A stretch of DNA of 64,000 nucleotides, taken from positions 15,872,001-15,936,000 of the forward strand of contig JBHGNT010000005.1 in NCBI GenBank assembly GCA_043228905.1, written 5' to 3'. Positions 7,972 through 57,600 of the stretch are shown here, one piece after another (the stretch's first letter is position 1; every line of letters begins with the position of its first letter). Under the pieces are notes generated by a model that saw nothing but the letters and a program-made list of their open reading frames with translations, did not search any database and was not told the DNA's origin. This stretch comes from Azolla caroliniana (lineage: Eukaryota > Plantae > Polypodiophyta). The translations under genes were made by a program, and so were the position numbers.

Positions 7972-8054
7972 CTTTGCCTTTGCTTGGCTTTTCTTCTAAC
8001 ACTCTCATATATGTATGTAGTTCGTTCCTCGGAGCCTCATATATGTAGTTCCCA

Positions 8055-8160
8055 GAGCCTAGGTGGAATCTCTCCTTCATGGCTTATAATATTGGGTTAA
8101 AAGATTTGGAGCCTAGGTGGAATCTCTCCTTCGTGGCTTATAATATTGGGCTAAAAGATT
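8055..8160. repeat. Two tandem ~54-bp copies upstream of the germin-like gene
   Basis: GAGCCTAGGTGGAATCTCTCCTTC(A/G)TGGCTTATAATATTGGG(T/C)TAAAAGATT occurs twice. Confidence 0.85.
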
Positions 8161-20200: not shown

Positions 20201-20756
20201 ATGTAATGTGTGTATTCATATTTCCTTTTAGGGTTCCATGGCTTGGATTATTCTCATTGTCAACATTTGACATTTTAATCTTTTATGTAAGACTTGTTAT
20301 TTGAATCTTTAAGTTGATTTGTTATTTGAAGCTTGGAGATATAACTTTGTGTGATTTTTGAGTTTTAAGTTTTCAGGTTTTGAGCAATTGGAAGCTTAGG
20401 TTTTTTTTGAGTAATTTTATGATCATTTTCATGGCAAATATTTGTTGTACACTTTAACCATTTTTTTTTTGGGAGTTTTTTGATGTTTGTTTCTAAGTTG
20501 GGGGCTCCTCTTTTGGTGCGTCACAGACAGAGAGACACAGAGACATATATATATATATATGTATCAGTATATATATATATATATATGTATCAGTATGTAT
20601 GTTATGTGTTGAAATCGTCAAGACTGCAGATTATGGCGCTGCGAAGCTACTCTTGGTGACCGTTTTGTTCCTACAGGGGCCAATCCAATCCAATCCAATC
20701 CAATCCAATCCATAGCCAACAACAGATCCCCTCGCCTTTCATATCTGTTGTTCACC

Positions 20757-29700: not shown

Positions 29701-32700
29701 CTGCATGTATAGTCGATGTAATCAAAGTGTACCAATAATAGGGTCCACTTAGCAATCCTTGCTGGCATGCTCACATGTTGAAGTACACATGGGAGCAATG
29801 ACATGCCGGTGATTATCACAAAGCAATGGGGAAGTTAAAGGTCCTAAATGACCCCCCTATAGTGTGTACATGTGTATAGGCCTATTTATAAAGGCTAAAA
29901 GTCACTTATCTCTTTTTCGTTATTTTTGGGCCAAGTTCATTGTGAACTTAGCCAAAACCCTAAATGGGTCATATAAAACATACGTTAATAACTTTTGGAT
30001 CTCACTTCAAAGGTGAACTCCTCCAACTACTACTCTCTCTCTATCTTTTCTACCATAGCTCCACTATTGCATCTAAAGAGTCTGCGCAGGTGCTGTACAG
30101 CAAAGAACAGGTGTTCAAACCTCTTTATTGAGCTATGGTGTAATCCTCCTTAGATATAAAACATAAGTTAATAACTTTTCAATCTCACTTCAAAGGTGAG
30201 CTCCTCCAACTATTGCTCTCTCTCTATCTTTTCTACCATAGCTCCATTGTTGCATCTAAAGAGTTTGCACAGGTGCTGTACAACAAAGAACAGGTGTTCA
30301 GACCTCTTTATTGTGTAGCTATGGCATCATCCTCCTTAGATGTGAAGAATCTTTTTGAGATTCGACGATTTGAGGGAACAGGTTTCAACTTCTGGAAGGA
30401 AAGAATGCAAGGAATTCTTTTTTTGAAGGATTGTGACAGGGTATTGGAGGCAGAAAAACCATAGAACATGTCCGAAGATGCATGGCAGATTTTAAATAAA
30501 AAGGTTGTCATATATATTAAGAGGGCTGTTTCTGATGAGATTTTAGTACATCTCAAAGGGTTGGTATTTGCTCCTGAAATATGGGCAAAGCTGAAGGCTA
30601 CCTATGAAAACAATACACCAGTTAATCAAGTACACCCATAGAATGAACCATACGTATCATACGTGTGTTTGCATTCGAGAATGATTCAATCAAACGTGTA
30701 TGGTAAATCACCTCGTAATTGGATTGGATTGACAAGTTGGATTGGATTGACTATGATCTATATTATATATTGATTCACTCTCAATCCCAATAAGTAGACT
30801 CTAATCCATTGTGAACCACCAACATAAGTATGGTTGCAATATTTGGGATGCTTCTTAAGAATCAAGACATCTCTATCCTCCTCACTTTAGAACATTACAA
30901 AAAAATGAGTATGAACTATAGAGATTGAATCAAAATATGTCATTATAAATTATAATCAAATGTTCAACATAAAACGTATATTTGAGAATATGAAGAAAAC
31001 ATGACATAGGCAGTAGTAGCATAACAACTTAGGGGCTCCATACTCAATGAAGAGATCAAGAGAAGCAAGTGGGGAAGGTGGCAGTGCAGCCAACATGGTT
31101 AGAGGTAGGATAGATAAGAGAAGTAACTATGCACACAAGAACAAAAGTAAAAGCAAGGAAAGGGGAAATAACAGCAAAGTTAAAAGCAATGATGTAACAT
31201 GCTATCAGTGTGGCAGGAAAGGCCACAAGAAACTTGATTGCCGCTATTGCAAAGCCAAACTTGAAAGAAAAAAGAATTTTGGAGATAAGAAAAAGGACAA
31301 GACTAATGCACATGACGGCAAAAAGGACGAAGAGAAGGCCAATTTGGCCTCTAATGTAGGCATAGTGGAGCTGTCAGATGTTGAGGACATTTTATGTGCT
31401 ACTTTTTCAGCTGATGATACTTATGCATATGATGCCTCTTTAAATATTCATTCACATGACGTGTGCATCACTAGGAATGATCTTATTGATGCTTTGCGGA
31501 CTGTCAATGTTGCATTGGCCCAAACATGGATAGTTGACTCTGGTGCTTCATTTCATGTGTCTCCTATCAAGGAGTGTTTTACTACTTTTATTGCAGGCGA
31601 CCATGGCCATGTATACCTTGGAAACAATCATGCATGTTCCATTGAGGGTATTGGCATTGTGCATTTTTCTACAAATGGCACTAATGAGCTGGTTTTGCAT
31701 AATGTGCGTTATGTACCAGGGATCAAGAAGAGCTTGCTTTTTGTGGGTCAAATGGATATGCATGGTTATAGCATTCTCTTTGAGAGAGGATCATGGAAAA
31801 TGACAAAAGGTTCAAGGCACAAAGAAGGGAACTCTTTATTGCTTACATGGAAATGCTATATCGGGCAAATTTATTGCTTTGGCTGAAGTTCACTCCCATA
31901 TGGAGTTGTGGCATAAGAGACTTGGCCATATGAGCCGAAAGGGTCTCACTAGGCTTTGTAATCTAAAGAAGCTTGATGCTAAAGGCACAAAGCTTGATTT
32001 TTGTAATGAATGCCAATATGGTAAGCAAGTGAAGCGTTCCTTTTACTCTGGTGTGTCTTGTAAGTCTTGTGTACTTGATCTTGTTCATTCTGATGTGTGT
32101 AGCATGCCCACCAATCTATGTGGGGTGCAATGTATTTTATCTCATTTGTTGATGATTTTTCTAGAAAAATTTGGGTTCAATTGCTTAAATCTAAGGATGA
32201 AGTCTTAGCTGCATTTAAGCGTTTTCATGGATTTGTGACCACCCAAATAGGCAGAAAACTGAAATGTTTGCGTACGGACTATGGTGGTGAGTATGCAAGT
32301 GCTGAATTCAAGAATTTTTGTGAAATTTTGGGTATTAAGAGGGAGCTTACTGTGCCATACAACCCCTCTTCTGGTGGTGTGGCTGAACGATATAACAGGA
32401 CACTTTGTGAGAGAGTGAGATGCATGCTGTCCACCACTAATCTCCCTCATGGATTTTGGGGAGAGGCACTCAAAACTGCAGTACATGTATGCAATAGATC
32501 CCCTCACACATCCTTGAAGAGGTTTGGTCTGGCAAACTTGCTTCATTTGATCACTTACATGTCTTTGGCTGCGAGGCTTTTGTACATATAAGGCTTGAGC
32601 TGAGAAACAAACTTGATGCCAAGTCCATTAAAGGCCTCTTCATGGGATATGGTGAAGAAGGCGAAATGGGCTACAGGATTTGGATACCCCAGCTCAAGAA

Positions 32701-35700
32701 GGTTATATGCAGCCAGGATGTTGTTTTCAATGAGGCAAGGCTGCTTCCAAACAATTGTGCCTCAAAAGATGACCATAAAAGGGTTAGATTTCAGCATGAC
32801 CAGCCACCTGTTAGACCCAATTTTGACCATCAGGATGCACCACAAAGGACTGAAAAGATTGATGATCCCGTGGTTTTGGAGCCAGAAGATGGACAGCAAG
32901 ATGAGGATCCTGAGGGGAATATGCAGCCAAGTAATAATGCTGAAAATGGTGCAGAAAATAATGGACAGCAGCCTAATGATGATTTAGACGTACCGCCTAA
33001 TGCTGACCCATTGCCTGACAATGTGGATCATTGGGTGAGACGTTCTACTTGTATTAGACGAAATGTGAGTAGATTTGACCCCTTGTTGCACTACATAATC
33101 TTGACTGGTGAGGGAGAACCTCCTACATATAAAGAGGCAAAGGCATGTGAGCACAACAATAAGTGGGAGCTTGCTATGCAGGAAGAGATTAAGGCTTTGC
33201 ATTCAAATAACACTTGGGACTTGGTTAAACTGCCCAAAGGAAGGAAAGCTATTCCTAACAAATGGGTATATAAAATCAAGACTGTTGATGACAAACCCAA
33301 GTATAAAGAAGGCTGGTTGCAAAAGGATATGCTCAAACTAAAGGCATAGATTTCCAGGAAGTGTTTTCTCCTGTGGTAAAAATGACCACTTTGCGAGTGC
33401 TATTTGCTATAGTGGCTGCACTTGATTTGGAATTAGACCAAATGGATGTACATACAGCTTTTTTGAATGGTGACATTGATGAAGAGCATTACATGAAGCA
33501 GCCCGAGGGCTTTGTTATTCTTGGAAAGGAACATTTGGTATATAAGCTCAATAGAAGCTTGTATGGGCTGAAACAAGCTTCTAGACAATGGTACAAAAAG
33601 TTTGATGCTTTTATGCTCAAACATGGGTACAAAAGAAGCCATGCTGATCACTGTTTGTATACTAAAATAGATGAAAATGGCAGTCCAATCATTCTTGTAC
33701 TATATGTAGATGATATTCTCATTGCTGCCAAGAAAAGGAGCATTGTTGATGTCCTTAAAAAGCAGCTGAAATCTGCATTTTCAATGAAAGACCTTGGGGG
33801 ATCTGAACATGTACTTGGAGTAAGAATTAGGAGACAAAGGGAGCAGCACACATTATATTTATCTCATGAAAAATACATTGACAAGGTGCTGGACAGATTT
33901 GGTATGGCTGACGCAAAGCCTCTTGGAGTGCTGTTACAACCATATGATAAAATCTCTAAGGAAGATTGTCCTAAGACACGAGAACCAATAAATTACATGC
34001 AAGGTGTACCTTATGCTTTAGCTTGTGGTTCGCTTATGTATGCTATGGTTGCTACTAGACCTGATATTGCCTATGGTTTCAACATTAAGAATTCTTTCTC
34101 AACATCAGATTTGACTTTGGTAATAAAGTAGATAGGATGCATAAGCCTACTTTCAGAACCTTGTTGCATGAGAATGGCAACTATAGCATGAGATCCAAAG
34201 CTGAGAGAGAAAGAAAGTAGATTTCCTTTTGGGTGGCATAAGAATAGTGGCATTTAGAGAAAAATCAGTTGTAATTGTCCACATAAAGTTGTTGGATTTT
34301 GCCATGCCAAGAAGAAGGAAACATGCGACAAGGCAAAAATCTGTGGTGTAATCTTCGGATCTTGCTCATTGCTGTTCTGACCCTATGGGTATGTTGGAAG
34401 CATGCTTTAACTCATGGTTAAAGCCATCAAAATTCTCCAGAAATGGTGGTTTTTTCTCTAACAATGGTGCAAACCATGCCACTGCTGTTCTTGTTAACAC
34501 TGTTCGCAGCATGATGGGCAATAATGACAATTAACATGGAATATGGGTAATATAATTGTATGCGCATCCTTTAGATGCACATGGAATGACCATGCTTGTG
34601 AATAAGGAGGAAGTTGAGAGGTGATATATGCTACTCATATTTATGTGACTCAACCGCATTAACTCACTGAAGTAAACTCCTATGATTCACTGAAATAAAT
34701 TTTAATGGGTCACTGAAACCCATTTTGATGAGCCACACAAAAGATGACTCTCTCGGACAGGGACAGAACCCATCGTTTGTATAAGCTGGGCCAAAAAAAC
34801 TGAACAAAGCTGATCAAATGCTTGCTCTAAACCAAGCTGAATTATAATGATCTCTTAATTTGTATTTTATGCATAATCTGTCCTCATTTGTATTTTGTGC
34901 ATAATCTGTTCCAATTTATTTGTATTGTGTATAATCTCCAAAACGGAGGTAATGGAGGTACCTTAGGAATCAATTTAGTAATACCCACTTTCCAAGAATT
35001 ATGCATATGTCCAGCTCAGATTTCTTGACACAGTGGTCAATAGTGATGGCAACAAATCTGCATGATTTACGAAGAATTCATTAATGGGATCATCCTACCA
35101 TGGCTTATGCCAAGAACCTGAAGGAAATCTGAACCCACTAGTCTCATCCTCTCCTTTTCTTACTGCCTCGTTTGCCTGGCTTGTCTCTCAATTTATTTGT
35201 ATAATCCAGATTATACCCTCACAAAGGCATTTATTACTGCAGGGTTAGCAATGCAGAGACATTGTGCTTAGGTTTAGTTGCTGTTGCTGTATTTCTTGTG
35301 GTGATGCCACTCTTTAAAGCCACTGCAGGAATTCTATTGCAGATGTCTCCGCAAAGCCTATCAACATCAATGCTTCACAAGTGTCAGAGACAAGTAGGAT
35401 AGATTTTCACAAATTTCTATATTATGCTAATGTGTCCCATCATTCCTGATTTAACTGAATCTCTCAGGTGATATTGCTGGAACGAGTTTTAGATATGCAT
35501 GCTCGCTTTTGGGAGATGGTTCCCGGATTTGTAGTAGGCACTATCCTCGTACAGGTACTAATGTATAAAATCTTCCTAGCAGGCATCTTGATTCTGCTAG
35601 GTAATGATTACCCACTATCATTTACATCTGATGAACTAAATGGGTAATTCTGGTTAAATGTAGGTAAAAGCAGACACAGATGAGCAAAAGGTGCTTCAAC

Positions 35701-39647: not shown

Positions 39648-40950
39648 TATCAGTTATGCAAAAGGTTGTGACATCAGATCATTTTCCCATATGTTTTGAG
39701 TTTAATAAACATGGGGTACATATGCACAAAACATTGCTTGATCGAGTTCCTTTGAGGTCTAATTCTTCTTTATTATTTCATTCCTTATTTGATGCATATA
39801 TGCAACAAAATTTTGGCATGTTTCTAGAACAAGTTATTTCAAAAGGATGGCATGCATGGATACAACACTACAAAATATCAGTGATATTCACCGTATGTAT
39901 GGTATGACTAATTCTAAAAGATGTAAGAAATTGTCAGTTATGCAAGAGGTTGTGACATCAGATCATTTTCCCATATGTTTTGAGTTTAATAAACATGGGT
40001 AGATATGTACAAAACATTGCTTGATCGAGTTCCTTTGAGGTTTACTTCTTCTTTATTATTTCACTCCTTATTTGATGCATATATGCAACAAACTTTTGGC
40101 TTGTTTTCAAAACAAGTTATTTCAAAAGGATGGCATGCATGGATACAACACTACAAAATATTAGTGATATTCACCGTATGTATGGTATGACTAATTCTAA
40201 AAGATGTAAGAAATTGTCAGTTATGCAAGAGGTTGTGACATCGGATCATTTTCCCATATGTTTTGAGTTTAATAAACATAGGTAGATATGTACAAAACAT
40301 TGCTTGATCGAGTTTCTTTGAGGTTTACTTCTTCTTTATTATTTCACTCCTTATTTGATGCATATATGCAACAAACTTTTGGCTTGTTTTCAAAACAAGT
40401 TATTTCAAAAGGATGGCATGCATGGGATACAACACTACAAAACATCGGTGATATTCATTGCATGTATGGTATGACTAATGCTAAAATACGTAAGAAATTG
40501 ATTGATAAGTTTTCACATATTCTTACGCGATGCAATGTACCATTGATGAATAATCCACACGATGAAGAGCTTTTGGATTTTCAAGTTCAAATATAGGACA
40601 TTGTGAAGAATTTGTCTTGTCAAAGTTCTCAATAGATAAGACTACGTCAGTTAAAGAAGGAATTTATAGATACAACAAGTTATTTCAAAAGGATGGCATG
40701 CATGGGATACAACACAACAAAACATCGGTGATATTCATTGCATGTATGGTATGACTAATGCTAAAAGACGTAAGAAATTGATTGATAAGTTTTCACATAT
40801 TCTTACGCGATGCAATGTACCATTGATGAATAATCCGCACGATGAAGAGCTTTTGGATTTTCAAGTTCAAATATAGGACATTGTGAAGAATTTGTCTTGT
40901 CAAAGTTATCAATAGATAAGACTATGTCAGTTAAAGAAGGAATTAATAGA
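39648..40950. repeat. Internal tandem duplications in the L1-like LINE (three ~283-bp units, then an overlapping ~280-bp duplication)
   Basis: TCAGTTATGCAA.AGGTTGTGACATC at about 39650, 39935 and 40217. ACAAGTTATTTCAAAAGGATGGCATGCATGGGATAC...TCAGTTAAAGAAGG at about 40396 and 40675. Confidence 0.85.
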
Positions 40951-42115
40951 CAATCAATCACAACCTCATATGTTTTTTCAAAGATTAAGACCATCGTACG
41001 CTTGTTCAAATGTGGTACAAATTAAGATAGGGTATGAAATCGTTCTAGACCCAATCAAGGTTATTGAGTTATGTATTTCTCATTTTAAGAATTTGATTGG
41101 GCTAGAATTGATTATTAATGAGGATGTATTGAAAGCACGACAATAGTTTTATAATGTAATTGGGTGTGTCATGAATACAAATATTTGAAGAAGCTAAGTT
41201 GGAAAAGGTATTGTTACACTGTCCAAATGGTAAAAGCCCCGGTTGGGATGATATTACAAATGAAGTTTTTAAGAAGTATGCTTGCATTTGTTAGTAATGA
41301 TGCCAAATCTTGCGGCTAGTGGTGATATTGTGGGTTTGCATCTTCCTTCTAGTGGACTATTGGTGGCACAAGTATTGGCTGATGATCTTTTATGTTGTTA
41401 CAAGCCTCAAACGAAAATCTTGAAAGAAGTATGCAAGTTTGGGATAAATTTGCTTTGGCTTTAGGGTTGTATATAAATAGGAGGAAGTTTCGCCTTATTT
41501 CTTGTATGGAGAGTGATTTGGAATGTTTGGGATGACGAGGGTCAATGATGACATGAGGATCAATTTATTGACATTTGGATTATCCATTAGGTATTGATGT
41601 TGCAAATGTTCAATTGATTGATTGGATTGGTAGTAAATTGAAGGAAAAATTCATGTATCAAAAATCTCAATTATGGCTCTTTCATGTACGACTCAAAGTG
41701 GTGCGATACCCATGTTATTATATTTTTTACGGTTACTACCTTGGACTAAGAAAGCATTACAAAACATGTTACAACTTATTCGGTTCATGTTGTGGTGGAA
41801 GGGAGAAATGATGGGAGTTACATTGATTTCATGGGACCTTTTGGCTACTCCCGAAATGTTAGGTAGTGCAACAATATTGGATTTAGAAATGCATTTGATG
41901 GCTCGTAGATTTGCATTATTACGAGATAATATGTCACCAAGATCAATCATGGATATCTATGATGGAATATTTTATTGAGCATGAAGGATTGGTGCACGGG
42001 AAAACAAAGATTCAAGCATCTTGGTGGTCATTACTCAATGGAAGTATTCCTCTAAAGATTCAACATTCTATATGTGGACAACAATTCTTAAGATCATGGC
42101 AAGATGCATTATCTC

Positions 42116-42475
42116 TGTCATGACGACATACATTTTGGCCTTACAAGGATTTGAGCCCAAGACGTCTTGGTCTATATGTTAGACCTTTAACCATTATACT
42201 AACATATATAATGTATAGTTATAATAAATGTATTATTAGTTATTACAAGACATTTAGAGTATTCTAGAATATTCTAGGATATTCCATGATTATATTAAAT
42301 ATCATAAATATCTAAAATATTCTAGAACATTCTAGAATACTCTATAAGGACCTATAAATAGGTGTCTATTCATTCATCACAACTCATTCGGTTCAACACC
42401 AGTTTGTAGCCCCTTAGCCTACTCTTTGTAATCCTTCCTGTCTTATAATATAAACTCTCTTTCCATTTCTAGTGT

Positions 42476-42522
<47 letters not shown>

Positions 42523-45500
42523 CTTCTATTGTCATCTTATTTTTCTCTCTCCTATTCTCAAGTCACGACAGTTTGAACCGAATCTATCTCTTTTCTTCTT
42601 CTCAGGTGATATAGTTGAAGAGTCTGAACCAATTCATGTAGTCCTAGGCAATTTGGCTAGTGTCATCTCATTCAACATCATTAGTAGTCCAGAGCACTCC
42701 CTAGTTCTTGGTCTTCCATGGTTTGAGCTACATAACCCAACTATTGATTGGAGAAAAAGAACCATTGAAGAAGTCACAATACAGTCTGAGCCTCTTAAAA
42801 CTCCAACAAAGGATATGACATTCCAAAAGATTTCGACAATCTCTATACATCAATTATGTGCGGAAGGACGGAAGGAAGACATGTTGGTGTTCGCAGTTTT
42901 AACAACTCCCACATCGAGCTCACAAGAATCGGGGGTCCAACTACCGAAGAAATATATAGAATTCTCCAATGTTTTTGATAAGGTGAAGGCCAATAGACTA
43001 CCGGAGCATCGACCATATGATTGCCCGATTGATTTGCAGCCCGGAAAAGAGCCTCCATGGGGGCCAATTTATATCCTTTCACCCACGGAGTTAGAGGTTC
43101 TTCGGGAATATATCGATGAGAACTTGGCGAATGGGTTTATCTAGCATTCAAGATCTCCTGCCGGCGCACCCATATTTTTCATTAAGAAGAAAGATGGTTC
43201 TCTTTGTCTGGTCGTGGATTATCGAGGATTGAATAAAGTAACTATTCGAAACCGATATGCTCTACCATTGATTTCGAGCCTTCTGGAACGCCTCAATGGA
43301 GCTAAGTATTTCACAAAGTTAGATCTTCGAGGTGCTTACAATCTTGTTCGAATTCGTCTTGGGGATGAATGGAAGACTGCTTTTCGTACTCGCTATGGCC
43401 ATTTTGAGTATACAGTGATGCCATTTGGTCTCACGAATGCACCAACAGTTTTCCAACATATGGCGAATGACATTTTTCGAGATTTCCTCGATATTTTCGT
43501 CATAATTTACCTAGATGATATCTTGATCTACTCAAAAACTCAAGAGGATCATGATATACATGTTCGACAAGCTTTGCAACAGTTGCGTGAATATGGTCTC
43601 TATGCAAAATTGGAGAAGTGCAGCTTTGACCAGCGTCAAGTGGAATTTTTGGGGTACATAGTCTCTTCACATGGCATCTCTATGGATCCAGCAAAGGTTC
43701 AAACAGTTTTGGATTGGCAAACACCACGGTCTGTGCGAGATGTACAATGTTTTTTAGGGTTCGCAAAATTTTATCGCAAGTTCATCAAAGATTATTCAAA
43801 GATCGTATTGCCCCTGACTCAGCTGACATAGAAGAATCAACCATTTGTGTGGAGTATAAATGCAAACTTTGCATTTGAAGGATTAAAGCAAGCATTTACA
43901 TCCGCACCAATTTTGATGCATGTTGATCCATTGAAGCGCTTTATACTGGAAGCTAATGCATCTGACTTCGCACTAGGAAGCGTATTATCCCAGATTAGCA
44001 ATGATGGCCAACTGCACCCTGTGGCTTTTCATTCACGGAAATTCGAAGCTGCAGAAATCAACTATGAGATTCACGACAAAGAGCTTCTTGCCATTGTGGA
44101 TTCTTTTCAACAATGGCGTCATTTTTTGGAGGGTTCGTCTCAACAAATCATTGTCTATAATGATCACAAAAATCTAACGTACTTCCAAAGTGCTCGAGTC
44201 TTGAGTCGTCGAGAAGCTCGTTGGGCGCTGTTTTTAACTCGTTTTGATTTCGTAATTCTATATCGCCGTGGGACGCAACAAGGCAAAACAGATGCTTTAT
44301 CTCGACGTTCATATATGGAACTTCAACCAGGAGAGGCTGCATTTGAAAGTAAGAAGCAAATCCTCTTGGGTCCTGACCGTCTCTCTACTAGTGGCTTTTC
44401 ATGGTATAGACACACCCGAGGATTCAAGTCTTCTAGACTCCATTCGGGAGCATATTGAGACTGATGAATTCGCCCAAGATATTCTGAACCATATTATCCC
44501 AGATTGTGCTTCTTGTTCACAATCTCAAAATCCTCGTCAAGACTACAACCAGTTCAATTGGCATGATGGTTTACTTTTTCGACAAAATCTCTTATATGTG
44601 CCTGATGGTCCTTCTCGACTCCAAGTCTTGCAACAATGTCATGATACACCAATGGCTGGACATTTTGGCATCCACAAGACTTTGGCGTTAATTTCTCGAA
44701 GGTATTGGTGGCCACAACTTCGCCATTTTGTTACGGATTATGTTCGTAGTTGTGATACATGTTGCCGATCCAAAAACCCTTGACATCATCCATATGGCTT
44801 ATTACAGCCAATGCCTATTCCTGAGAGTCCATGGAAATCTATTTCATTGGACTTCATTACGGATCTACCACCTTCCAAGGGTTTTGATTCTATTCTCACG
44901 GTAGTAGATCGTTTTACCAAGATGGCACATTTTCTTCCCTGCACAAAGGCCATTACGAGCCAAGAGACAACTGAGTTACTCATGCGAGAGGTGTTTCGGC
45001 ATCATGGTCTTCCTGATGATATTATCAGTGATCGGGGTCCCTAGTTCATCTCAAAATTTTGGCGGCACATGTTCAAACTCTTACATACTTCTTGCAAACT
45101 CTCTTCTGGCTACCATCCAGAAACTAACGGACAGAGTGAGTGCACCAACCAAACAGTAGAACAATATCTTCGTTGTTTTGTCAACTATCAACAAGATGAT
45201 TGGGTTGATCTATTACATTTGGCGGAATTTGCTTACAACAACTCAGAACATTCTTCTACTAGATATTCCCCATTTTTTGCAAACATTGGGTACCATCCTT
45301 GTTGGACTATGCTTGAACATCCCGAACTCCTGACAAACCCGGCTGCTGAAGATCGGCTCACCCGACTCCAAGAAGTTCAAGATATCCTTTTGCACCATTT
45401 ATGTGATGCTCAAAACACTCAAAAGAAGGTTGCCGACCGTCATCGACGTGATTCATCGACTACGTTTCAAGTGGGGGATCGAGTATGGCTTTTACAAGGT

Positions 45501-48500
45501 CGCATTAAAACAACCCGACCTTGCTGCAAATTGGATTATCAACGTTTTGGCCCATATGTGATATCTGGTAAGATCAATGATGTGGCATTTCGCCTTGATC
45601 TTCCCCCTCATATGCATCTTCACCCGGTCTTCCATGTTTCACTTTTGGAGCCGTACACAACCAGCTCTATTCCAGGCCGTCTTACATCTCCCCCACCTCC
45701 AATCGAAGTTTCGGATGGCTCCGAATATGAAGTTGCTGCCATTCTCGACTCCAAGATCGTTCGCAACAAACTGTATTATTTGGTTGACTGGCTAGGTTAT
45801 ACACCTAATGATCGAACATGGGAACCTCTTGAGAATCTTGCTAATGCCTTTGAAATGGTTGTTGCATTTCACAACAAATATCCTCATAAGCCGAGTTCGA
45901 AATCTTGTCTTCTGACTCGTGAAACTCGTCGTCGAAAAGAGGGGATAATGTCACGACGACATACATTTTGGCCTTACACGGATTCGAGCCCAAGACGTCT
46001 TGGTCTATATGTTAGACCTTTAACCATTATACTAACATATATGATGTATAGTTATAATAAATGTATAGTTATAATAAATGTATTATTAATTATTACAAGA
46101 CATTTAGAGTATTCTAGAACATTCTAGAGTATTCCAGAACAATCTAGAGTATTCTAGAACATTCTAGGATATTCCATGATTATATTAAATATCATAAATA
46201 TCTAAAATATTCTAGAACATTCTAGAATACTCCATAAGGACCTATAAATAGGTGTCTATTCATTCATCACAACTCCTTCGGTTCAACACCAGTTTGTAGC
46301 CCCTTAGCCTACTCTTTGTAATCCTTGCTCTCTTATAATATAAACTCTCTTTCCATTTCTAGTGTTCTCTTTAATGCGAGAACCCAATCCCGACAATGCA
46401 CAATATTTCAAATGAATAGAAACCTAGAAATGGTAAATGTCGATCCTTCAGACATAGACACCACACGTAGATCAAAGGATCAAGGTGCAGACGCCACGAG
46501 CTTTGGCCATCATTTGCTCGAACTCGGTAGTCGGCACCAGATGGTCATATATAATGGTTTAGCCAAGTGGCCAGGTTCGGAAGAGCTCACATGTTTCCCA
46601 CATGGAGGAGGGGAAAGCACAGTCGATTATCTAATAGGACGCCCTGAAGCCACCCACATGATTAACTCCTTCCGAGTGGCCCCATGTCCTATTGGCGCAG
46701 ACCATAGTTTCTTATACTTCGAGATAAAATGCGATATCTCTAACGTCACCAACTCTAGTCAACCACGCCATGACATCACAATACATTTCACACATGAGCT
46801 CTCTGACATATATGCTCGACATGTTCAAGCCCATCTCTCCTCCCTTGATCCCTCCCTACCTTTAGAGAGCCTTAATACGAAACTCACACACATCCTTCAT
46901 TCTGCAGCGGTTAGCAGCTTCCCATACACGAAACACTCCAATCAAGGTAAAGTAGGATCTATGCCACAAAATAGATGGTATGATGAGGATTGTAGGTGCT
47001 TACATCGACAACTTACAATATCGCAACTCAGTGGTAGTATTACCTCAGTACAAGCTCGTAAAGAAATGCGCAAGATGACACGTCGTAAGAGACGAGCATG
47101 GGAGGCATCCCAATATTGGGAACTCTACCACATGCTCATGAGTAACGATTGTGCCACTGCATGGAAGAGATTACGGGAACCAAGACCACAAACACCCATC
47201 GAAGATCCCAAAACTTGGCACACTTATACAGAGAGACTTTACCACATCCCAAACCAACCACCCATTCCAATGCCTTCCACACCCCGACCTACTGTGGGGA
47301 CACTCTTCACGACCTCTAGGGTCACGAAGGTCATAAAGAAATTACAACATAGGAAGTCCATGGACCACACAAGATTGCGAGCAGAACACATCATATACGC
47401 GAGAGAGTGCCTAGCTCCCTTACTAACTCTAATCTTCAATTGTGCCCTTGCAGAGGGTTTTCCATCACAATGGACCATGAACACAGTGGCCCCCATACAT
47501 AAGGGGGGGGACCCCATGGACCCAAATACTTATAGGACCATTATGATAGGTCATACCCTTGCTAAATTATATGGTGCAGTAATGGAGGCAGAGCTTAGCG
47601 AGTATATGGAGACCTTAAATCTTCGTGCACCTGAACAGGCCGGCTTTAGACGAGCCTTCTCCACTATTGACCATATCTTCACACTTAGATGCTTAATTGA
47701 CCAGACTAAGGCTCGCAAGAAGAAACTATATTGTTGTTTTGTGGACTTCCGCAAAGCCTTTGACACGGTCCCTAGAGAGCGGTTGTTTGATAGGCTTAAG
47801 AGCTTGAGGATACCAGATGACATGGTTTGGGCCATCTACGCACTATATGAACAAGTGTCCGGGTGTGTTCGATGCCCAGGCGGCATATCCGATAGTTTCA
47901 CTAGCACTATTGGTGTAAAACAAGGTTGCCCCTTATCTCCGACTCTTTTTGGGATCTACATTGATGAGATCACAGATTTTATTGCTCGTAAGGGAGGCAA
48001 TGGAGTAGTCCTTGGAGGTACGCAGGTGCGTATCTTGCTCTATGCAGATGACATAGTTTTGCTCTCTGAATCCGAACACGACCTACAAAGGCACCTTAAT
48101 GCCTTAGATGACTTTTGCACACAACGAGGATTGGTAGTGAATCTAGGGAAAACTAAAGTCCTTATCTTCCACACGTCGGCCCAAGTTAGAGCTAAGTGTC
48201 ACCTAACTATCTCCCATAGCCCAGTTGAGGTGGTTGGATCATATGTCTATCTCGGAGTCACTTTCAGTGCCCGCTCAGGTAAATTTTCGATGACACAAGC
48301 AGCGAAGGATAGACTTACAAGAGGACATGCATCCCTCTCACTCCTCGAGAGACAATGCCACCAAGCATACTTCCAAGAGCCACGAACTAAAGGGTGGCTC
48401 TTTGACTCATTAGTGACTCCCTCTCTCATGTATGCATCAGCGGTTTGGGCCCCAGGACTACCATCTTTCATGTGGACGCAATTAGAGAGACCATTGGTGA

Positions 48501-49856
48501 TGATGTTATCACGCCAACTCCGAAGCAAATCGTCGGTCCCACATGACATTATTAGGGCTGAGTTCACTCTACCCCCTATGTTAGTAGAAGCACTTTTTCA
48601 ACTGGTAGTCTTTATACACAGGATACATAACCAACCACTTGATAGAATATCCCACCAAGCCTTTAAGGCTTCTCGAGCATTGTATGAGTCCGGCTATACT
48701 AGCTCATGGTATGGCATGATGGTGAGTTGGCTTCTTGCCAACGGTCTAGACATTACTAACCTCCCCCCCCTTAAGTACGACCACACGAATGATAACACTT
48801 TACTCTCTCATGAGGACCGTAATAAAGTAATACGCCAAGAAATATGGCAAATTTATACCCGGTATAAATGGATCACCCCACTAGAGCCACTCCCATCTAA
48901 AATGTTGTACTATAAGGAACACTTTATGCACTTCTCTGAGTTAGGTTTTATCACGCGCCCAAAATATCTAGATGTATTCTTACCACATGCACTAAGGGTT
49001 GCCATTGGTCAACTTAGAATATCATCTCACCAACTTGAGATTGAGAATGGACGTACTAATGGAGTCCCTAGGGAGGAAAGTATATGTAGGTTATGCCACA
49101 TAGAGATAGAGGACGAGTACCATTTTACATGCAAATGCCCCACCTATGCCGAGATAAGGGCAAAATACCAAGACATACTTGGTTCCTCTCCCACCCTCCC
49201 TAAACTATTAGATACACTAGATATAAAGAAATTAGGTAGATACATCTTAGAATTGAAACACCACAGAGAGAAAAAATTACAAAACGTTGATAATAATGTT
49301 GCTAATGTTTACCAACATATAACAAATGAAGTTTTTCAGGAACAGGGGGAGACAATGAATGTCGACACACCTGCACCACTCGGACTTCTCCTTGATGAAG
49401 CAGAAAATCAAAGAAGAACCAAACGCCCTCGGATGCCGGGTTTCAAAGCAACTCGACGAGATGTAGAAGCAATAAAGAAAATAAGGGAACGTGAACTACA
49501 CCGCCTAGAAGCCATGGCTAGGGCACTCTGTGCATCGGGACCATGGGTCACACCCACACCAAAAACTTTTGACCTCACTTCTTTTTGAGAGACTTGGGTG
49601 GAAATGAGATTAGGTTTGGTGCAAAGTTTTGTACACTACTAGAACTTTCTTAGCTTAAGCTATTTTCTTTTATTTTTAGTTTTGATGATTGGATAAACAC
49701 TCATTTTTTGTTGTAACCTATTTGTCTCATGGGCCAAATTTGGCCTTAGAAGACGTTAATATATCTTTCTTTCTTTCTTTCTTTCTTTCTCTGTCTCTCC
49801 CCCTCTACCTTCTACTATCATCTTATTTTTCTCTCTCCTATTCTCAAGTCACGACA
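42116..49856 (+). mobile_element. Ty3/gypsy chromovirus (Tcn1/Tf1-sushi-like), gag-less; LTRs 42116-42570 and 45949-49856 (split by a LINE); TSD ATCTC
   Basis: TGTCA...CGACA LTRs, ATCTC at 42111-42115 and 49857-49861, and PPT AAAAGAGGGGATAA at 45935-45948. Protease C-half (LVLGLPWF), RT (YLDD), RNase H, integrase (H-H-C-C, SLDF, SDRGP), GPY motif and chromodomain EYEVAAILDS...YLVDWLGY...TWEP. Several stops. Confidence 0.95.
46371..49790 (+). mobile_element. Young 5'-truncated non-LTR retrotransposon (RTE-X-like) with an uninterrupted ~1070-codon ORF2 and a (CTTT)n tail
   Basis: It starts at FNART, i.e. within the endonuclease GDFN motif. STVDY...ADH, EQAGFR, FVDFRKAFD, GVKQGCPLSP, LLYADD, LRISSHQLEIENGR and CRLC...EDEYHFTCKC follow, with a stop at 49588. 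The clade call rests on recalled motifs, not a phylogeny. Confidence 0.9.
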
Positions 49857-50849
49857 ATCTCTTTTTGGGTGGGGACCATCAAGTGATCGAGAATCTTGTA
49901 ATTCATTACAAAATGAATTGTTTATTTCTTCTCAATTCAATCGTTTATTTCGATTGGGGGTTGTACATTTGGAAGATGTGGTTGATAATGAATCTCAAAG
50001 GTTGTCGGAATTTGAAGATGCCAAGCGATGGTTATGCATTCCCCCAAATTATGGATTCATTTGGGAGAAACTACAAGATATACCATTGTTGCAAGGATCT
50101 TTGCCATTGAAAACAAATGTTGCACATTGGGTGGATTGACGGTTACAAGATGGTACACGCTTGTTACAAGTAACTAAAAATATATTGTATCATCATGCAA
50201 TGTCATCATTATCTTGCCTATCTCCTAAAGCAGAGAAATTGTGGAATGTATGTTAGTCGGATGCAAGATGGTGGAAAATATTATAATGTGGTTGGCATTC
50301 CCATCTACCATTTCATGCATAGGGAGAGTCATGATTGGTGGGCTCCCATTAGGTTCGACCTTAAAGAGACGAGGACTAGGGTTAGACACTTGTTTCTTTT
50401 GCACCATTCCATTGGAGGATAGTACACATAGGTTCATTAAATTTCCTATAGCGTGTACCATTTGGAAGTACTTATCGGACATTTGACAAGTTTTAACCTG
50501 TTGTTGTTTGAGACCTCAACACTGGGTTTTTTCTCAATATGTTCAAAATAGTTCAAATGATGAGATGGAGATATTGTTCCAATTTTTACGTTAGTGGGGA
50601 CTACAACACAATTAGAATATGCGTAATGCTTTCATGTTTGATAACAGACATGAGGTGAAAGCCTATATACAGAAGCTGAAAGGTATTCTCATGTGGAAAT
50701 TTTGGATGTTAGAGCATGTTGGGATCATTTCCACAAATGCACATTTAGATTTTTTTAATGGCATTACAGGACGTCCCTCTCCCTACAAAGAAGTGTTGTA
50801 ATTAAGTGGATTTTACATACAATTAATATTATTGTGTGCTTTTACAAAA

Positions 50850-51669: not shown

Positions 51670-54600
51670 TGTTAAAAGGTTGGCTAATGTGATTGGATAG
51701 AAGGAATGATAGGTGCATGCACTATCATGATTTGGGAAACCAATGAATGGAGACCCTTTTAGAAAGGCACATCTATTCAAGGGGCCTAGGAAAAGGTATA
51801 AATATGAGGCTTAGCTACCCTCATAAGCACATTACGTCGGAAGGCTGTTGTCTTAGCCACGAGTGGTGCGGGGTAGGCTTTCGTCTCGACGATCGTGTTT
51901 ATCTCTTCCAAGGTATTAGTCATCCTAATATCCGGCGGTATGGGACGTCGGTGGTAGGTTGGCTATGTCTAGCTCATAGCTCGGGGGTGGTTGGGTGGAA
52001 CGGGTTCTTCTATTCAATCCATTTTCCTTCTTTTACTTTACTTTGGTCTATTGATTAGTAATAGACTCTTAACAGTGGTATCATAGCATTTACTAACATT
52101 TTTTTTTTTGTTGTTTTGATGTTTTTTGCATGTGAACGAGGAGGATCTAACAAGGCTCGTCATGCTCTTCACAGGATCAAAACAACATTCTTAACCTGAT
52201 ATTCTTCTTTCTCGATCTCTCTCTACTTTTCTATGATGGGTTCTTCTTGGTCAAATCAAATTTGTATTATGTTTTATTTTCTTTCTTTCTACTTTCTACC
52301 ATGCTACGATTTTAATTATGATTGTGCATCAAGCCGAGCGTGTTTTCACTAATCGCACACGCTGTCGTGAAAATCTGTCACTATGTGCGGATTGTGAAGC
52401 GGAAACATCGGGGTTCTGAATTGGAAGGATTTGAAGTTTGTACTAGCTTTAGCGAGAAAGTATTTAAGATAGATTGAGAGAGATTGATATGGAGAAAGAG
52501 AGATTGAGATAAAGATTAAACGCTTAACTTTAGATTTGAGAGACAAGATACATTAACAATAGGATAACAAGTTTCTTATTTTTCCCCAAAATTTTCATTG
52601 TTTTTCTCTTGATTGATTCCTCCACTCTTTTATAGATGCCCCCATTCATATGGTGCATGTGAGGGTGCAAGACATGCACATAATGCATGAAATGCATGTT
52701 TGCCATGTCATCATCTAAACTCTCATGTATGAGAATTTACATATAAAATGATCAAAGTAAAACTTTTGAAGTTATGACTTGGCTTAGTGGTAAACCTATT
52801 GACTTTCAACTTGGAGGTGCAAGGTTCAAATTCTTAGTTGCACCCCCTTTGTATACAAATTTTCTTTTTACTAGGCTTTTTAGTCTTGTTTTTACAAATG
52901 TTTAAGTGCATATTACACATTCACTTGACCTCCAAAGAACTAGACGTTTTGTTCGTTTCACACCGGAAAACTTCAAGATATCGTGCGTCACGATAAATCT
53001 ACCTATCCGTTCCATCCGATCCGCATCCGTCCGGTCCGGTCCCATCCGGCCCGATCCGCATGCCATCTGGTTCCTTCTAGTCTGCAACCCGAGCCGGTTC
53101 CATCCAGTGTGCATACCGATCCGGTTTCGTAGTTGTCCGATCGCTATCCGGTTCTGGTTCCGGTCCCCATCCAGTTCCGGTTCCGTTGCCGTCCGATCAC
53201 CGGTTCCATCGCCTTCCGTCCGCCGGTCCGGTGCCATCCAAAACCAATGAACTCGGCTACATCCATTCGTCAAGTCATACAACTCAACCTTTCTATGCTC
53301 CAAACACATATATATATTATAAAGAGATATTGGTATGCTTATATAATCTGGGATCCTTATTTGTCCTGTCTATGTGGGATATCTCATAGTTTTATTTTTC
53401 TCTTCTTCTTCGCAATCTTCATACCCACATAACTTGACACTTAGTTGTTCATCGGGCCGAGCGTGTTTGCCCTAATCGCACACGCTCACCTCATGGCCCT
53501 TTTGCATATGATGTTGAGTATGCCACTCTTCCCTTTATTGAGCCATCACTTGGCCGATTCTATGGGATGTTGTGGTCTTAATGAGGTGTAGGTTGCCTAC
53601 CTATGCCACTCTACTCTCTATTGAGTCATCACTTGGCCGATTCTATAGGATGTTGTGGCCTTGAGGAGGTATATGTCGCTTACCTATGCCACTTTACTCT
53701 TTATTGAGCCATCACTTGACCGATTCTAGGGAGATGTGGTGGCCTTGAGGAGGTGCATGTCGACTACCTTAGGGTTTCATACCTTAAGGCATGCTTAATG
53801 TTCATACACCTAATTGATTATTAATCTAATTATTTTCTAATTACACAAATTGTCTTTTCACTTTTTGATGATTTTCTCATAATTGTCATTAAATATCCAC
53901 CCACAATTAACTCTCTTTCTTGCCATTAATTTAAGTTCATCTACATTTTTTACGTACGTTTAATGGTGTAACGATTCATGTAGACTAATTTTTAATATTG
54001 AGTGGGCATCATGCCACTTTTTGAACATTTTTTCCAAAGTGTTCTCTAGGTTTGACTCATGTAATCAAGGCTTAGAACTCGATTAAAAACACATGAGTTC
54101 CCCTCTTGATGTTTTACTCATAAATTTGAGTACTACATCTTTGCGTAGAACACCACCACCATTTGTATCAATTTGTGGCTTATGTCACAATTGTGCAAAT
54201 TACAACCACCATATTGGGATGTATATGTGCATACCTCACACCATCCATTTATTTGTGACATGTTTTTTAGTAGGTAGCACATGGGTTTTTTTTACCCTTG
54301 TTTTTGTCACTACTTGATTCTTATGGGTAGTGCCTTATTTTATCGTTTTTATCATAACGTTTTCTTGTTACTCACAAGACTAGAATATTACTTGCGAGTG
54401 CACTTGTTTTTTCACGTAATACAATTTCTCGACCATATCAATACATGTTGGGTTGACATTCTAATATAAGGCTAACTAGGAAACTACATTGATGTTAGAA
54501 CCATGGTTGAGCCTCGGGGAGCCGCCATGATTATTCAAGATAGAGATCCAAGAAAGACATCTTAGCTATGTTTCCCCCCCATGGTTCTTAAAACACCATA

Positions 54601-57600
54601 GTGTTACCATAGTTATCGGATCTCGAATCACATCTCATATGTCTAGAGGGGTAAAGACGTGAGATGCTTTCTTGGTAAAGTTCTTACAATCAAAATTTCA
54701 AACATTCATTTTGCTTGTGTATTTTCTGAACCTCATTTATATTGTATACCCACAACTTGCATCATGGAACCAGTTTTGAACGTTGTTAGAGCGATCTCTC
54801 CGACCGAGACCTCGCAACTCCAATCCGCATCTCGCACACAAGCTGACATCATTATTGAGCAATTGCTCACTACTACCTTGAATCAATTGGCCGAAATGAG
54901 GTAGGCCAATATGGCATTGGAAAAGAAATTCCAAGAATTGACTATTGAGTCCAAGAAAGAAGGTGAACCTTCTTTCGTAGTAACGCCATTCAAGGGAGAT
55001 AAGAAAGAAAGAACCAAGGAGGCCATTAACACTTGGCTTGGTCTTTGGGAGTCTCACTTTGAACTCCACCCCAAGTCCGATGCTGTAAAAATTGGTTATG
55101 TCGGTTCGTGAGTTAGGTGGCCGAGCTGCTGCTTGGTGGCGTGACCTAAGGACTACAAAGAACTTACCCACAAGTTGGGAAGGTTTCATTGATGTTTTTA
55201 AGAAACAATTTTGTAGCCACCTTCTCAAACTGAACAAGTTTAACACTTGCCCACGTTGTCGAGTAAGCCATTTACCTCTCTCGAGGATTATGTGCATCAT
55301 GCTCGAACCCAGATCCAAAAATCGGAGCTTACGAGTGAGAAATGGTTTGTTGCTTGCTTTTTGAATGGTATTCCCAATGGGGATTACCATTAGATTGTCC
55401 ATAACAAGAACCCCACAATTTTCGAGGAAGCCGTCAACATTAGACTTCAGTACCATATGACTTCCAAGAAAGACCACAATAAACCTGAGTTCGCCAAAAC
55501 TTCGAATGTCAAGTTCATTGGGAAACGTAAGCAATCCAGTGACACTCTTGACCGCAACTCCAAGAAATCAAACCTCTTTTGTGCATATTGCAAGAAGCGG
55601 GGCCACACAAGGATACTTGTCGTTGTCGTGAGAGGAAGTCAATGAACACCCCCCCTCAAAACAAATATACAAGTCACATAGGTGAGTCTTTTGATGTTGT
55701 TGAAGTTCATACCAACCACTTACGTTCATGTGAATGCACTTTTCTTTCACATTTACTTGGACCTAATGATTTACTCCGAGCAGTCGGGTATATCAATGGA
55801 ACACAAGCACATTTCTTGTTTGATTCCGGTAGTTCTCACAATTTTCTTAATGATCACTTTGTGCAGCAAATAGAACTCCACATAAACGCAAGTGATCATA
55901 TCTATCAAGTTTACATGGAAAATGGAAGCCTTCAATACATCAGTGGCATTGTTTGGCAACTGCCAATTCAAATAGATACCTATTTAGAGAAGCTAGACTT
56001 TCATGTTATGGAACTACAATCCGCAGGTGTCATTTTAGGATACTCTTGGTGTTTTAATAAACCCTTCTTTGTCCATTGATTGGGTTAATCACTCAATCAC
56101 ATTTGAACTTAATAATTGTAAACATTTTATTCAATGTTCCAAACTTCCTTCTCGTTCACTTGTGTCTTCTAAATCTTTAAGTGAGTATTCTAGTTCATTA
56201 ATTTATTTGTGTGTAATTGATCCTACGCTTCAATTTATTATTTTAATATTGATGCCACACAATTACCACATTATGAACAGTGATTACTAGACTCTATTTT
56301 AGACGATTTTCAAGACGTGTTTCCTAATGAATTGCCGTTTACTTTACCACCAAAACGTAATGTGGACCATCAAATTGAACTCATCCCCGATGCTGCGCTT
56401 GTGAGCATTCCACCTTACCGACTTAATCGATTAGAAGAGGATGAGATCGCTAAACAACTTTTAAGGAATACTTGAGTATGGGCCACATTAGGTATAGTAA
56501 ATCACCTTGGGGTGTGCTAGTTCTATTAGTTAAGAAGAAGGAAGGTTCATGGCGAATGTGTATCAATTATCGCCGTTTGAATAAAAGGACAATTAAAAAT
56601 TCATATCCGTTACCTCGTGCTGATGATTTGATTGATCGTTTGCATGAGACCCGATATTTTACGAAAATTGACTTCCGAATAGGTTATCATTAGTTTCGCA
56701 TTGCCAAGGATGATATTCCTAAAACCGCTTTTCGTACACGCTATGCCCATTATGAGTTTTTAGTCATGCCTTTCGGGTTGACTAATGCTCCAACCACATT
56801 CCAACAAGCAATGAATGACATTTTCCGAGATCAAGTTGGTGATTTTGTTGTCGTCTTCTTGGATGATATTTTGATACATAGCTGTACCTTGCAAGATCAT
56901 GTTCAACATGTTCGATTTGTTTTGCAAAAGTTGCATGGCAACTCTTTCTATGCAAAACATTCAAAATGTGATTTTTTCCAAAACTCTATTGTGTACCTAG
57001 GTCATTTAATTACGGAAAATGACGTTGAAATTGAACCTTCTCATATTGAACAACTTGACAAATCATTTGAGACACTCAAAGAGCATGTGTGTCAAGCTTC
57101 CATTCTTCTATTACCGGACCCTTCTAAGCCTTTCTCAATCGAATCCAATGCTAGTGATTATGCTATTCGTGCCGTTCTTTATCAAAGTGGTCACCCTATT
57201 GCTTTTGAAAGTAAGAAGCTTGATGCTGCTCAATCTCGGTATTCGGTTCAAGAGAAAGAGTTGTTTGCGGCAATACATGCACTTAAAACATGGAGACACT
57301 ATCTCTATGGAAATAAATTTGTGGTTACAACAAACCATCAATCATTGAAGTATTTTTGTGACCAGCCAGATCTTGTTGGTTGTAAAGGCCATTGGGATGA
57401 CCTTATGCAAGATTTTGATTTTTCCATACAGTATCGCAAGGGTTCTATGAACACCGTTGCAGATGCTCTTAGTTGCATTAAAGATGTTAACATGCTTAGC
57501 TTCATGGAAATAAAATATGATCTTTTAGATCACCTTTGAGGGAAATACCTTGACGACAGTTATTTCTCAAAATACTAGAGGAAAGCCGAATCTGGTTTAG

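What the first reader, a model, noticed from the sequence alone, without database searches (positions are those of the whole stretch)
42353..42583. Tf1-type self-priming signature in a plant chromovirus: predicted transcript 5' end is complementary to the PBS
Seen: there is no tRNA-Met PBS after the 5' LTR. Instead TTGAACCGAAT (42573-42583) is the exact reverse complement of ATTCGGTTCAA (42386-42396). That 11-mer lies 33 nt downstream of the start of TATAAATA (42353) in an initiator-like CTCATT context. Known: S. pombe Tf1 primes reverse transcription with the first 11 nt of its own mRNA, and similar structures are proposed for Tf1/sushi-group elements. Inference: this family is tRNA-independent and self-priming. 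The 3' LTR copy has an A-to-C change at the first base.
Basis: partly seen in the sequence, partly recalled or inferred. Interest (0 to 1): 0.75.

Follow-up and report, generated by a model that had tools for sequence, protein, structure and literature searches.

The report
Self-priming fern retrotransposons leave fold-back fossils
A group of fern jumping genes has, where a tRNA site normally sits, an 11-12-base match to a spot just after its own TATA box, so it likely starts copying itself with its own RNA as yeast Tf1 does (already predicted for moss relatives), and dozens of copies in the genome have a scrambled left end joined exactly at this pair, likely frozen by-products of that priming.

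Summary
Observation exact. The window holds a dead, gag-deleted chromovirus whose PBS (42573-83) is the reverse complement of an LTR 11-mer 33 nt after the TATA box. Self-priming is well supported: four primer types in this genome keep the pairing with different letters, at TATA+32/33, and one pair switches G:C/A:T together in 32 of 35 copies. The transcription start was not testable (no RNA run). The basic claim is not new: Neumann et al. 2019 predict self-priming for 83% of 1500 moss and club-moss Tcn1 elements, and the scan has noted self-priming signatures in other lineages on other DNA. Two things are new. The host is a fern, where a PCR survey found no Tcn1. And the genome holds about 60 independent copies with U3 + primer joined to an inverted U5: 44 exact hits in the window's group against 0 of the reciprocal junction and 98 normal junctions; 20 of 40 events have exact 5-bp target duplications. 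These are likely cDNA ends whose single-stranded PBS folded back on the LTR before integration; I found this in no paper searched.

The parts
42111..42115 (+). left target-site duplication ATCTC
   Evidence: same 5-mer at 49857-49861
42116..42570 (+). 5' LTR (TG...CA, 455 bp) with a (CT)n tract at about 42469-42520
42353..42360 (+). TATA box
   Evidence: sequence; 32-33 nt before the primer in 34 of 35 full elements and exactly 33 in 35 of 35 scored B/C junctions; function inferred
42386..42396 (+). predicted first 11 nt of the RNA = self-primer
   Evidence: exact complement of the PBS; covaries with the PBS across families; start site not mapped
42397..42404 (+). conserved C(A/G)CCAGT after the primer; predicted short stem with the LTR end and the GT spacer
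   Evidence: in the minimum-energy folds of five related copies, strongest (8 bp) in type D; not formed in the window's own fold
42571..42572 (+). 2-nt spacer GT between LTR and PBS
42573..42583 (+). primer-binding site, not of the tRNA 3'-end type
42602..42603 (+). deletion junction: about 1.46 kb (leader, gag, start of protease) missing relative to full-length copy L033
   Evidence: L033 position 476 joined to 1934
42603..45933 (+). broken pol: protease remnant, RT (43181-43663), RNase H, integrase, SH3 and chromodomain (45726-45875); interrupted by stops and at least one frame change
45934..45945 (+). polypurine tract, 3 nt before the 3' LTR
   Evidence: sequence
45949..46368 (+). 3' LTR, left part; primer copy at 46276-46286 with first base C
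46369..49790 (+). 5'-truncated LINE inserted in the (CT)n tract of the 3' LTR (right end approximate: its TTTC tail merges with the tract)
   Evidence: 1088-aa open frame with RVT_1; ends
49791..49856 (+). 3' LTR, right part (U5 end)
49857..49861 (+). right target-site duplication ATCTC

Best explanation
This is a dead copy of a fern chromovirus of the fungal/vertebrate (Tf1/sushi, Tcn1-like) branch whose PBS pairs with an 11-mer in its own LTR, and the family likely primes reverse transcription with the first 11-12 bases of its own RNA instead of a tRNA. Shown: the pairing, its covariation, its fixed place after the TATA box, and the fold-back junctions. Inferred by analogy with Tf1: transcription starts at 42386, the RNA end folds onto the PBS, RNase H cuts after base 11, and the piece primes the minus strand. 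Inferred further (about 0.7): the plus strand copies this primer and so ends in a single-stranded PBS that is complementary to the 11-mer on its own strand; it can fold back and be extended over U3, giving a hairpin with an integrase-ready U3 end that cannot do the second strand transfer. That end is integrated together with a second DNA end, and host repair opens the loop and joins the pieces, leaving U3 + primer + inverted U5 joined to the rest of the element.
For: Exact complement, shuffle 15/20,000. 30 of 35 full elements pair perfectly over 11-12 nt and 5 have one one-sided mismatch; four primer types; type A against type D differs at 6 of 11 positions, all compensated, and cross-type pairing falls to 5-6 of 11. 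In B/C, 32 of 35 scored junctions are G:C (17) or A:T (15), and the A:T state needs at least 3 changes on the tree. Complementarity starts at TATA+32/33 whether the primer is 11 or 12 nt. Predicted RNA pairing probability 0.82-0.96 in 10 of 10 folds. RT on the fungal/vertebrate side, 100/99. Print: self-priming predicted for 83% of 1500 Tcn1 elements; about 50% of Tf1 cDNA keeps a single-stranded PBS at its 3' end. Fold-back junctions: 44 hits against 0 reciprocal and 98 normal; repeated in types B/C (19 of 20 examined real) and D (4) with their own primers; 20 of 40 events have exact TSDs; 38 of 40 inverted pieces end inside the R-U5 loop, 14 of 38 within +7..+30 (expected 12%, p 1e-4); 8 of 40 resume within -7..+9 of the PBS, where the minus strand would stop.
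Against: No RNA data, so the start site and the cleavage are untested. The full three-duplex 'pretzel' of Tf1 is not evident: a duplex of the leader with R-U5 beat shuffles in 2 of 10 copies, and the U5-end duplex in 1 of 10. Type A and C primers match tRNA T-arms over 10 nt, and only 50 distinct tRNA genes of 16 isotypes were compared. No named Tf1, Tcn1 or sushi sequence is in the tree. For the fold-back model: one B copy has both junctions, a near-clean inversion (L232); two type-A hits sit behind a PPT rather than a flank; 18 of 40 events gave no matching TSD in the DNA fetched; the predicted DNA fold of primer with PBS is weak in 2 of 6 families (0.34, 0.05), one of them a family rich in junctions; fold-back frequency differs strongly between groups (44:98 against 24:1271, patterns not equivalent).
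Confidence: 0.88

Rival explanations
1. The PBS is primed by a tRNA fragment ending in the T-loop (GGTTCAA resembles the T-psi-C arm), and the LTR match is a leftover.
For: tRNA-Val genes of this genome match 10 of 11 nt of the type A primer; tRNA-Thr(GGT) and tRNA-Gln genes match 10 nt of type C. The tRNA set examined is incomplete.
Against: Best tRNA matches are 8 nt for type B and 6 nt for type D, while each type pairs fully with its own LTR; each switch would need a new tRNA plus a parallel LTR change; no TGG. The described half-tRNA primers are confined to copia lineages.
Confidence: 0.03
2. Self-derived primer, but not the cleaved 5' end of the same RNA: a short transcript in trans, or the 11-mer of the 3' LTR copy of the RNA, pairs with the PBS.
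For: The 3' LTR carries the same 11-mer; two fold-back hits have a PPT before U3; weak flanking stems; start site unmapped.
Against: Complementarity stops at TATA+32/33 in every type, which is what a capped 5' end predicts and an internal primer does not need; related elements use the 5' end.
Confidence: 0.07
3. Self-priming is right, but the inverted junctions arise after integration: by template switching at the 11-bp inverted repeat during replication, or by a free cDNA's single-stranded PBS tail annealing to the 11-mer of an existing LTR (as in integrase-independent Tf1 insertion).
For: TSDs would also survive such events; Tf1 cDNA inserts at PBS-homologous sites by single-strand annealing; L232 has both junctions; two hits lie at a 3' LTR position.
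Against: Fork switching predicts both junctions, found 44:0 in type A. Tail annealing predicts 3' and solo LTRs as often as 5' LTRs, but 2 of 39 hits with a clear start follow a PPT. Seven copies with 99-100% identical U3s already carry the junction, with inverted pieces matching their own 3' LTR at 0-1 differences. In L051/L053 the three U3 copies show no nesting (4, 4 and 8 differences of about 262; small numbers). L246 is an LTR-only palindrome with two U3 ends and an exact TSD.
Confidence: 0.25
4. The fold-back junctions are assembly or amplification chimeras.
For: Inverted chimeras at short repeats are a known artefact (recalled); raw reads of this assembly were not available.
Against: Old copies have diverged between their parts (90-97% identity); one event is segmentally duplicated (L051/L053); exact TSDs; one contig of public run X1 also switches strand at 42396, though at depth 5 and of unknown independence.
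Confidence: 0.03

Closest known systems
Tcn1 clade of plant chromoviruses (Neumann et al. 2019, PMC6317226: passages and Additional file 5 read; Novikova et al. 2010, PMC2864245: passages read)
   Same: Non-seed plant host, chromodomain, overlapping gag and pol frames, 5-bp TSD, 5.3-5.9 kb, no tRNA PBS, LTR-complementary PBS within 0-5 bp of the LTR, RT grouped with fungal and vertebrate elements.
   Different: Described from mosses and club-mosses; the 2010 PCR survey of 26 ferns and horsetails found none, and this host is a fern. Self-priming there was a blastn prediction; the passages read report no covariation, TATA spacing or fold-back copies.
Tf1/Tf2 of Schizosaccharomyces pombe, with Tj1 and Tosmo (second-hand through PMC7175516, PMC4600332, bioRxiv 2022.12.06.519325, PMC11042837: passages read; primary Levin papers not held)
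   Same: 11-nt primer at the predicted RNA start, PBS next to the LTR, chromodomain integrase; the single-stranded PBS tail on Tf1 cDNA is the substrate my fold-back model needs.
   Different: Tf1 is proven by experiment and needs three duplexes; here only the central duplex and at most a short U5 stem are seen. Primer length is 11 or 12 nt by family. Fold-back insertions were not found in the passages read.
TAR/Houba/Osr-1 copia lineage (PMC6317226 passages)
   Same: Plant LTR elements predicted to self-prime.
   Different: Ty1/copia superfamily; unrelated domain order.

Membership tests
Chromovirus (Ty3/gypsy) | RT-RH-INT order with a C-terminal chromodomain | tested here: met
   (RVT_1, RT_RNaseH, Integrase_H2C2, SH3_Tf2-1, Chromo in this order)
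Tf1/sushi group | RT groups with fungal and vertebrate chromoviruses, apart from seed-plant and algal ones | tested here: met
   split 100/99, midpoint root; labels are host names, not element names
Tf1/sushi group | No tRNA 3'-end PBS; PBS complementary to the element's own LTR | tested here: met
Tf1/sushi group | The complementary stretch is the 5' end of the RNA | not testable with these tools
   no RNA holder listed; indirect: fixed TATA+32/33, pyrimidine then A
Tf1/sushi group | Three-duplex 'pretzel' around the PBS | tested here: inconclusive
   central duplex in 10 of 10; short U5 stem in several folds; leader duplex above shuffles in 2 of 10
Tf1/sushi group | RNase H cleavage after the primer | not testable with these tools
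   needs biochemistry; inverted pieces cluster near +12, which other models also give
Tcn1 clade (REXdb) | Placement with named Tcn1 references | not tested
   no named Tcn1, PpatensLTR or SM-Tcn1 sequence came back; the REXdb files were too large to read
Tcn1 clade (REXdb) | Chromodomain with aromatic cage | tested here: met
   Y, W, Y in EYEV / VDW / GY; cage positions recalled from HP1
Tcn1 clade (REXdb) | Overlapping gag and pol frames, 5-bp TSD, size 5466-9444 bp | tested here: met
   (types A-C 5.5-6.2 kb; type D 5.3 kb is just below the range); the window copy itself lacks gag
Tcn1 clade (REXdb) | Host range: mosses and club-mosses | tested here: not met
   plastid rpoC1 of G000 is closest to Pilularia (85%) and Marsilea (83%), Physcomitrella 67%; a range extension or a separate entry into plants

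The most novel reading that the evidence does not exclude
Self-priming has a built-in failure mode. Because the plus strand ends in a copy of the primer, it folds back on its own LTR, and integrase inserts these hairpin ends with normal target duplications; up to about a third of the insertions of some families are such products. The genome then records the primer/PBS pairing in vivo, inverted-U5 junctions become a sequence-only test for self-priming in any lineage, and a fern hosts Tf1/sushi elements that may have come from fungi separately from moss Tcn1.
Probability: 0.6. Interest if true: 0.68.

Novelty: new variant of a known kind. Interest (0 to 1): 0.5.

Why it matters
Self-priming is proven only in fission-yeast elements and is a blast-level prediction in plants. 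Here it gains covariation over several families and a class of genomic junctions that shows the two sequences pairing in real intermediates. If the fold-back reading holds, it describes a cost of tRNA-independent priming, a two-molecule integration-and-repair route that yields rearranged LTR elements, and a cheap test for other suspected self-priming lineages. The finding as first written is already predicted in print and alone would score about 0.25.

Tried and rejected
No RNA holder listed; X1-X3 are contigs only, X2 and X3 laid nothing: no evidence on expression or start site. tRNA-Met or other 3'-end PBS: rejected (no TGG); copia elements of the window do show TGGTATCAGAGC at about 5901 and 59997. 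My first guess of a moss host was wrong. I first read L164 as a clean palindrome; one search shows two U3 ends with a more complex inside; L246 is the clean one. The reciprocal-junction pattern for B/C was not clean: 19 of 23 hits have U3-like letters and were not read further; of the 4 leader-like hits, 1 is real, 2 are ordinary LTRs and 1 a truncated LTR. One of 20 B/C fold-back hits examined (L201) is an ordinary PBS. Rows left out of counts: of 50 RT-anchored regions, 35 gave a scored arm/PBS pair (the rest had no RT, no LTR pair, no TSD or no anchor); of 40 B/C junctions, 5 were dropped (no anchor 1, no arm 2, no TATA 2; one of these last is a third A:C mismatch, one is G:C). The second ATTCGGTTCAA of the window (57241) lies in another gypsy's RNase H region and is taken as chance. 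PDB search gave only generic RT hits, Ty3 best. Papers not held: PMC109269, PMC230564, PMC231564, PMC1563812. Searches for fold-back cDNA insertions: searches gave 0 papers, one search gave 2 unrelated by listing (Ty1 RNA structure, HIV-1 start site), one search gave 0 earlier findings. Searches for Tcn1 in ferns: 11 listed, only PMC2864245 read; 0. The library lacks most subscription journals, and Additional files 1 and 3 of PMC6317226 (per-element PBS table, sequences) could not be read; they may bear on membership and host range.

Full report
1. Observation. All stated features are present at the stated places: TATAAATA at 42353, the 11-mer at 42386-42396, and its exact reverse complement at 42573-42583, two bases after the 5' LTR (42116-42570). 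Fifteen of 20,000 dinucleotide shuffles of the LTR gave an equally long complement to the first 20 nt after the LTR. The 3' LTR has C at the first base; all 30 loci have A.

2. Anatomy. The element runs from 42116 to 49856 between ATCTC duplications. Pfam finds RT, RNase H, integrase, SH3 and a chromodomain in gypsy order. The copy is dead: about 1.46 kb with gag is deleted 20 nt after the PBS, pol has stops and a frame change, and a 5'-truncated LINE sits in the (CT)n tract of the 3' LTR. The LTRs differ at 11 of 412 aligned bases. Full-length relatives are 5.3-6.2 kb with 5-bp TSDs and overlapping gag and pol frames; many have identical LTRs, so the group was recently mobile.

3. Placement and host. 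In a 50-row RT tree the window falls on the side of fungal and vertebrate proteins, apart from seed-plant and algal ones (100/99); types A-C group with a Cunninghamella protein (99/92) and type D lies elsewhere on that side. No named Tf1, Tcn1 or sushi sequence is in the tree, so I claim 'works like Tf1' and 'Tf1/sushi branch', and Tcn1 membership only provisionally. An earlier AI note (e1-10617911) called the host a fern; plastid rpoC1 confirms it (best named hits Pilularia 85%, Marsilea 83%; Physcomitrella 67%). Novikova et al. 2010 (passages) found no Tcn1-like clones in 26 ferns and horsetails; Neumann et al. 2019 (passages) list mosses and club-mosses only.

4. Covariation. Of 50 RT-anchored regions, 35 gave a scored arm and PBS; 30 pair perfectly over 11-12 nt and 5 carry one one-sided mismatch. 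Four primer types occur: A (window), B and C (12 nt), and D (RT 68% identical), which differs from A at 6 of 11 positions, all compensated. The match starts 33 nt after the TATA start in A-C and 32 in D (one copy with a 4-nt deletion has 29). In 35 of 40 further B/C junctions that could be scored, the variable pair is G:C in 17, A:T in 15 and mismatched in 3 (Fisher p 6e-7, which ignores kinship); the A:T state needs at least 3 changes on a leader-gag tree, and the TATA distance is 33 in all 35. Recombination can move LTR and PBS together, so these changes are not all independent mutations. Folds put the primer:PBS helix at probability 0.82-0.96 in 10 of 10 copies, with a short U5 stem in several and little sign of the third Tf1 duplex.

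5. tRNA rival. The PBS lacks TGG. Against 50 distinct tRNA genes of 16 isotypes, an incomplete set, type A matches a tRNA-Val T-arm over 10 nt, type C Thr and Gln T-arms over 10, B 8 and D 6. A tRNA primer does not explain D or the covariation.

6. What is already known. Neumann et al. predict self-priming for 83% of 1500 Tcn1 elements by a blastn rule that this copy meets. The Tf1 mechanism is taken from passages of PMC7175516, bioRxiv 2022.12.06.519325 and PMC4600332; the primary papers were not held. The scan has noted like signatures in BEL/Pao, diatom copia and animal gypsy elements of other genomes (unchecked), and nothing on this sequence.

7. Fold-back copies. L051 and L053 showed U3, the 11-mer, then the reverse complement of U5. 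The junction has 44 exact hits, the reciprocal junction 0 and the normal LTR-PBS junction 98 (a lower bound, since only some leader types match). All 44 were read in long regions and reduce to 40 events after merging L051/L053, L164/L197 and doubles in L169 and L177. Twenty have an exact 5-bp TSD around the whole unit and 2 a one-mismatch TSD; 18 gave none in the DNA fetched. Seven copies with 99-100% identical U3s carry inverted pieces that match their own 3' LTR at 0-1 differences. In 38 events the inverted piece ends within the R-U5 loop, 14 of them at +7..+30 against 12% expected (p 1e-4; end points entered by hand); L177 ends at +12. Eight of 40 resume within -7..+9 of the PBS. Types B/C give 24 hits, 19 real of 20 examined (17 events), against 1271 normal-type hits and one real reciprocal junction, which lies in a copy that also has the first junction. 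Type D gives 4 hits (3 events, each with an exact TSD), among them L246, a 616-bp palindrome with two U3 ends. One contig of run X1 changes strand at 42396 (depth 5, independence unknown).

8. Mechanism. Shown: pairing, covariation, spacing, junctions. Inferred: start at 42386, fold onto the PBS, RNase H cut, priming (0.88). About half of Tf1 cDNA keeps a single-stranded PBS at its 3' end (PMC11042837 passages). In a self-primed element that tail is complementary to the 11-mer on its own strand. Fold-back and extension give a hairpin with a blunt U3 end and an R-U5 loop, unable to accept the minus strand. Integration of this end with a second end would give a normal TSD and a break inside, and repair would keep a variable part of the loop inverted and often join it to the minus-strand end at the PBS. 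This accounts for the one-sided junction, the loop limit and the resumption at the PBS (0.7). The main rival is a post-integration event (0.25); L232, two PPT-preceded hits, the missing TSDs and the weak predicted DNA fold in two families keep it alive. The junctions show that the two sequences pair in real intermediates; they do not by themselves map the start site.

9. Novelty. Searches for fold-back cDNA insertions gave nothing relevant, nor did those for Tcn1 in ferns; the library lacks most subscription journals and two REXdb supplements could not be read. Verdict: a known kind of priming in a new host group, with an apparently undescribed class of by-products. Interest 0.5.

Noticed in passing
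window 46369-49790; L239 and L219: The LINE in the 3' LTR sits in the (CT)n tract; the same or a similar LINE 3' end appears in the microsatellite tract of LTR pieces in L239 and L219, suggesting a LINE that targets CT/GA tracts.
   Followed up: partly
L091 (type D), L104, L099: U3 between TATA and primer: U3 holds an inverted copy of the primer just upstream, forming a hairpin across the predicted start (DNA fold -12.7, -7.3 and -4.4 kcal/mol); in the L054 subfamily a direct near-copy precedes the primer. Unexplained.
   Followed up: partly
L272, L273, L284: U3 and primer of the A:T subfamily with the leader of the G:C subfamily, and a PBS that matches the primer: possible recombinants in which the PBS was rewritten from the primer.
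   Followed up: no
L050, inner element of L060, L047: Other broken 5' ends: an LTR that stops in R and resumes in the leader, one that stops at the primer's end, and a PBS preceded by an inverted internal segment.
   Followed up: partly
RT tree: Types A-C group with a protein of the fungus Cunninghamella (99/92) while type D lies apart: possibly more than one entry from fungi; no root or clade test was run.
   Followed up: no
window 42386-42396: Primer types A-C resemble the tRNA T-arm (GGTTCAA); coincidence or ancient origin not settled.
   Followed up: partly
window 5700-11500, 31000-34100, from about 59990; 56694-57539: Copia elements, two with the usual TGGTATCAGAGC site, further copia fragments on the minus strand at 4298-5488 and 12414-13088, and a gypsy RT-RNase H remnant.
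   Followed up: no
window 39650-40950, 53519-53767, 58426-58565: Tandem repeats of about 283/280, 83 and 72 bp.
   Followed up: no
window 20613-21692 (+), 632-1807 (+), 54737-55567 (-): Open frames of 359, 391 and 276 aa without a Pfam match.
   Followed up: no
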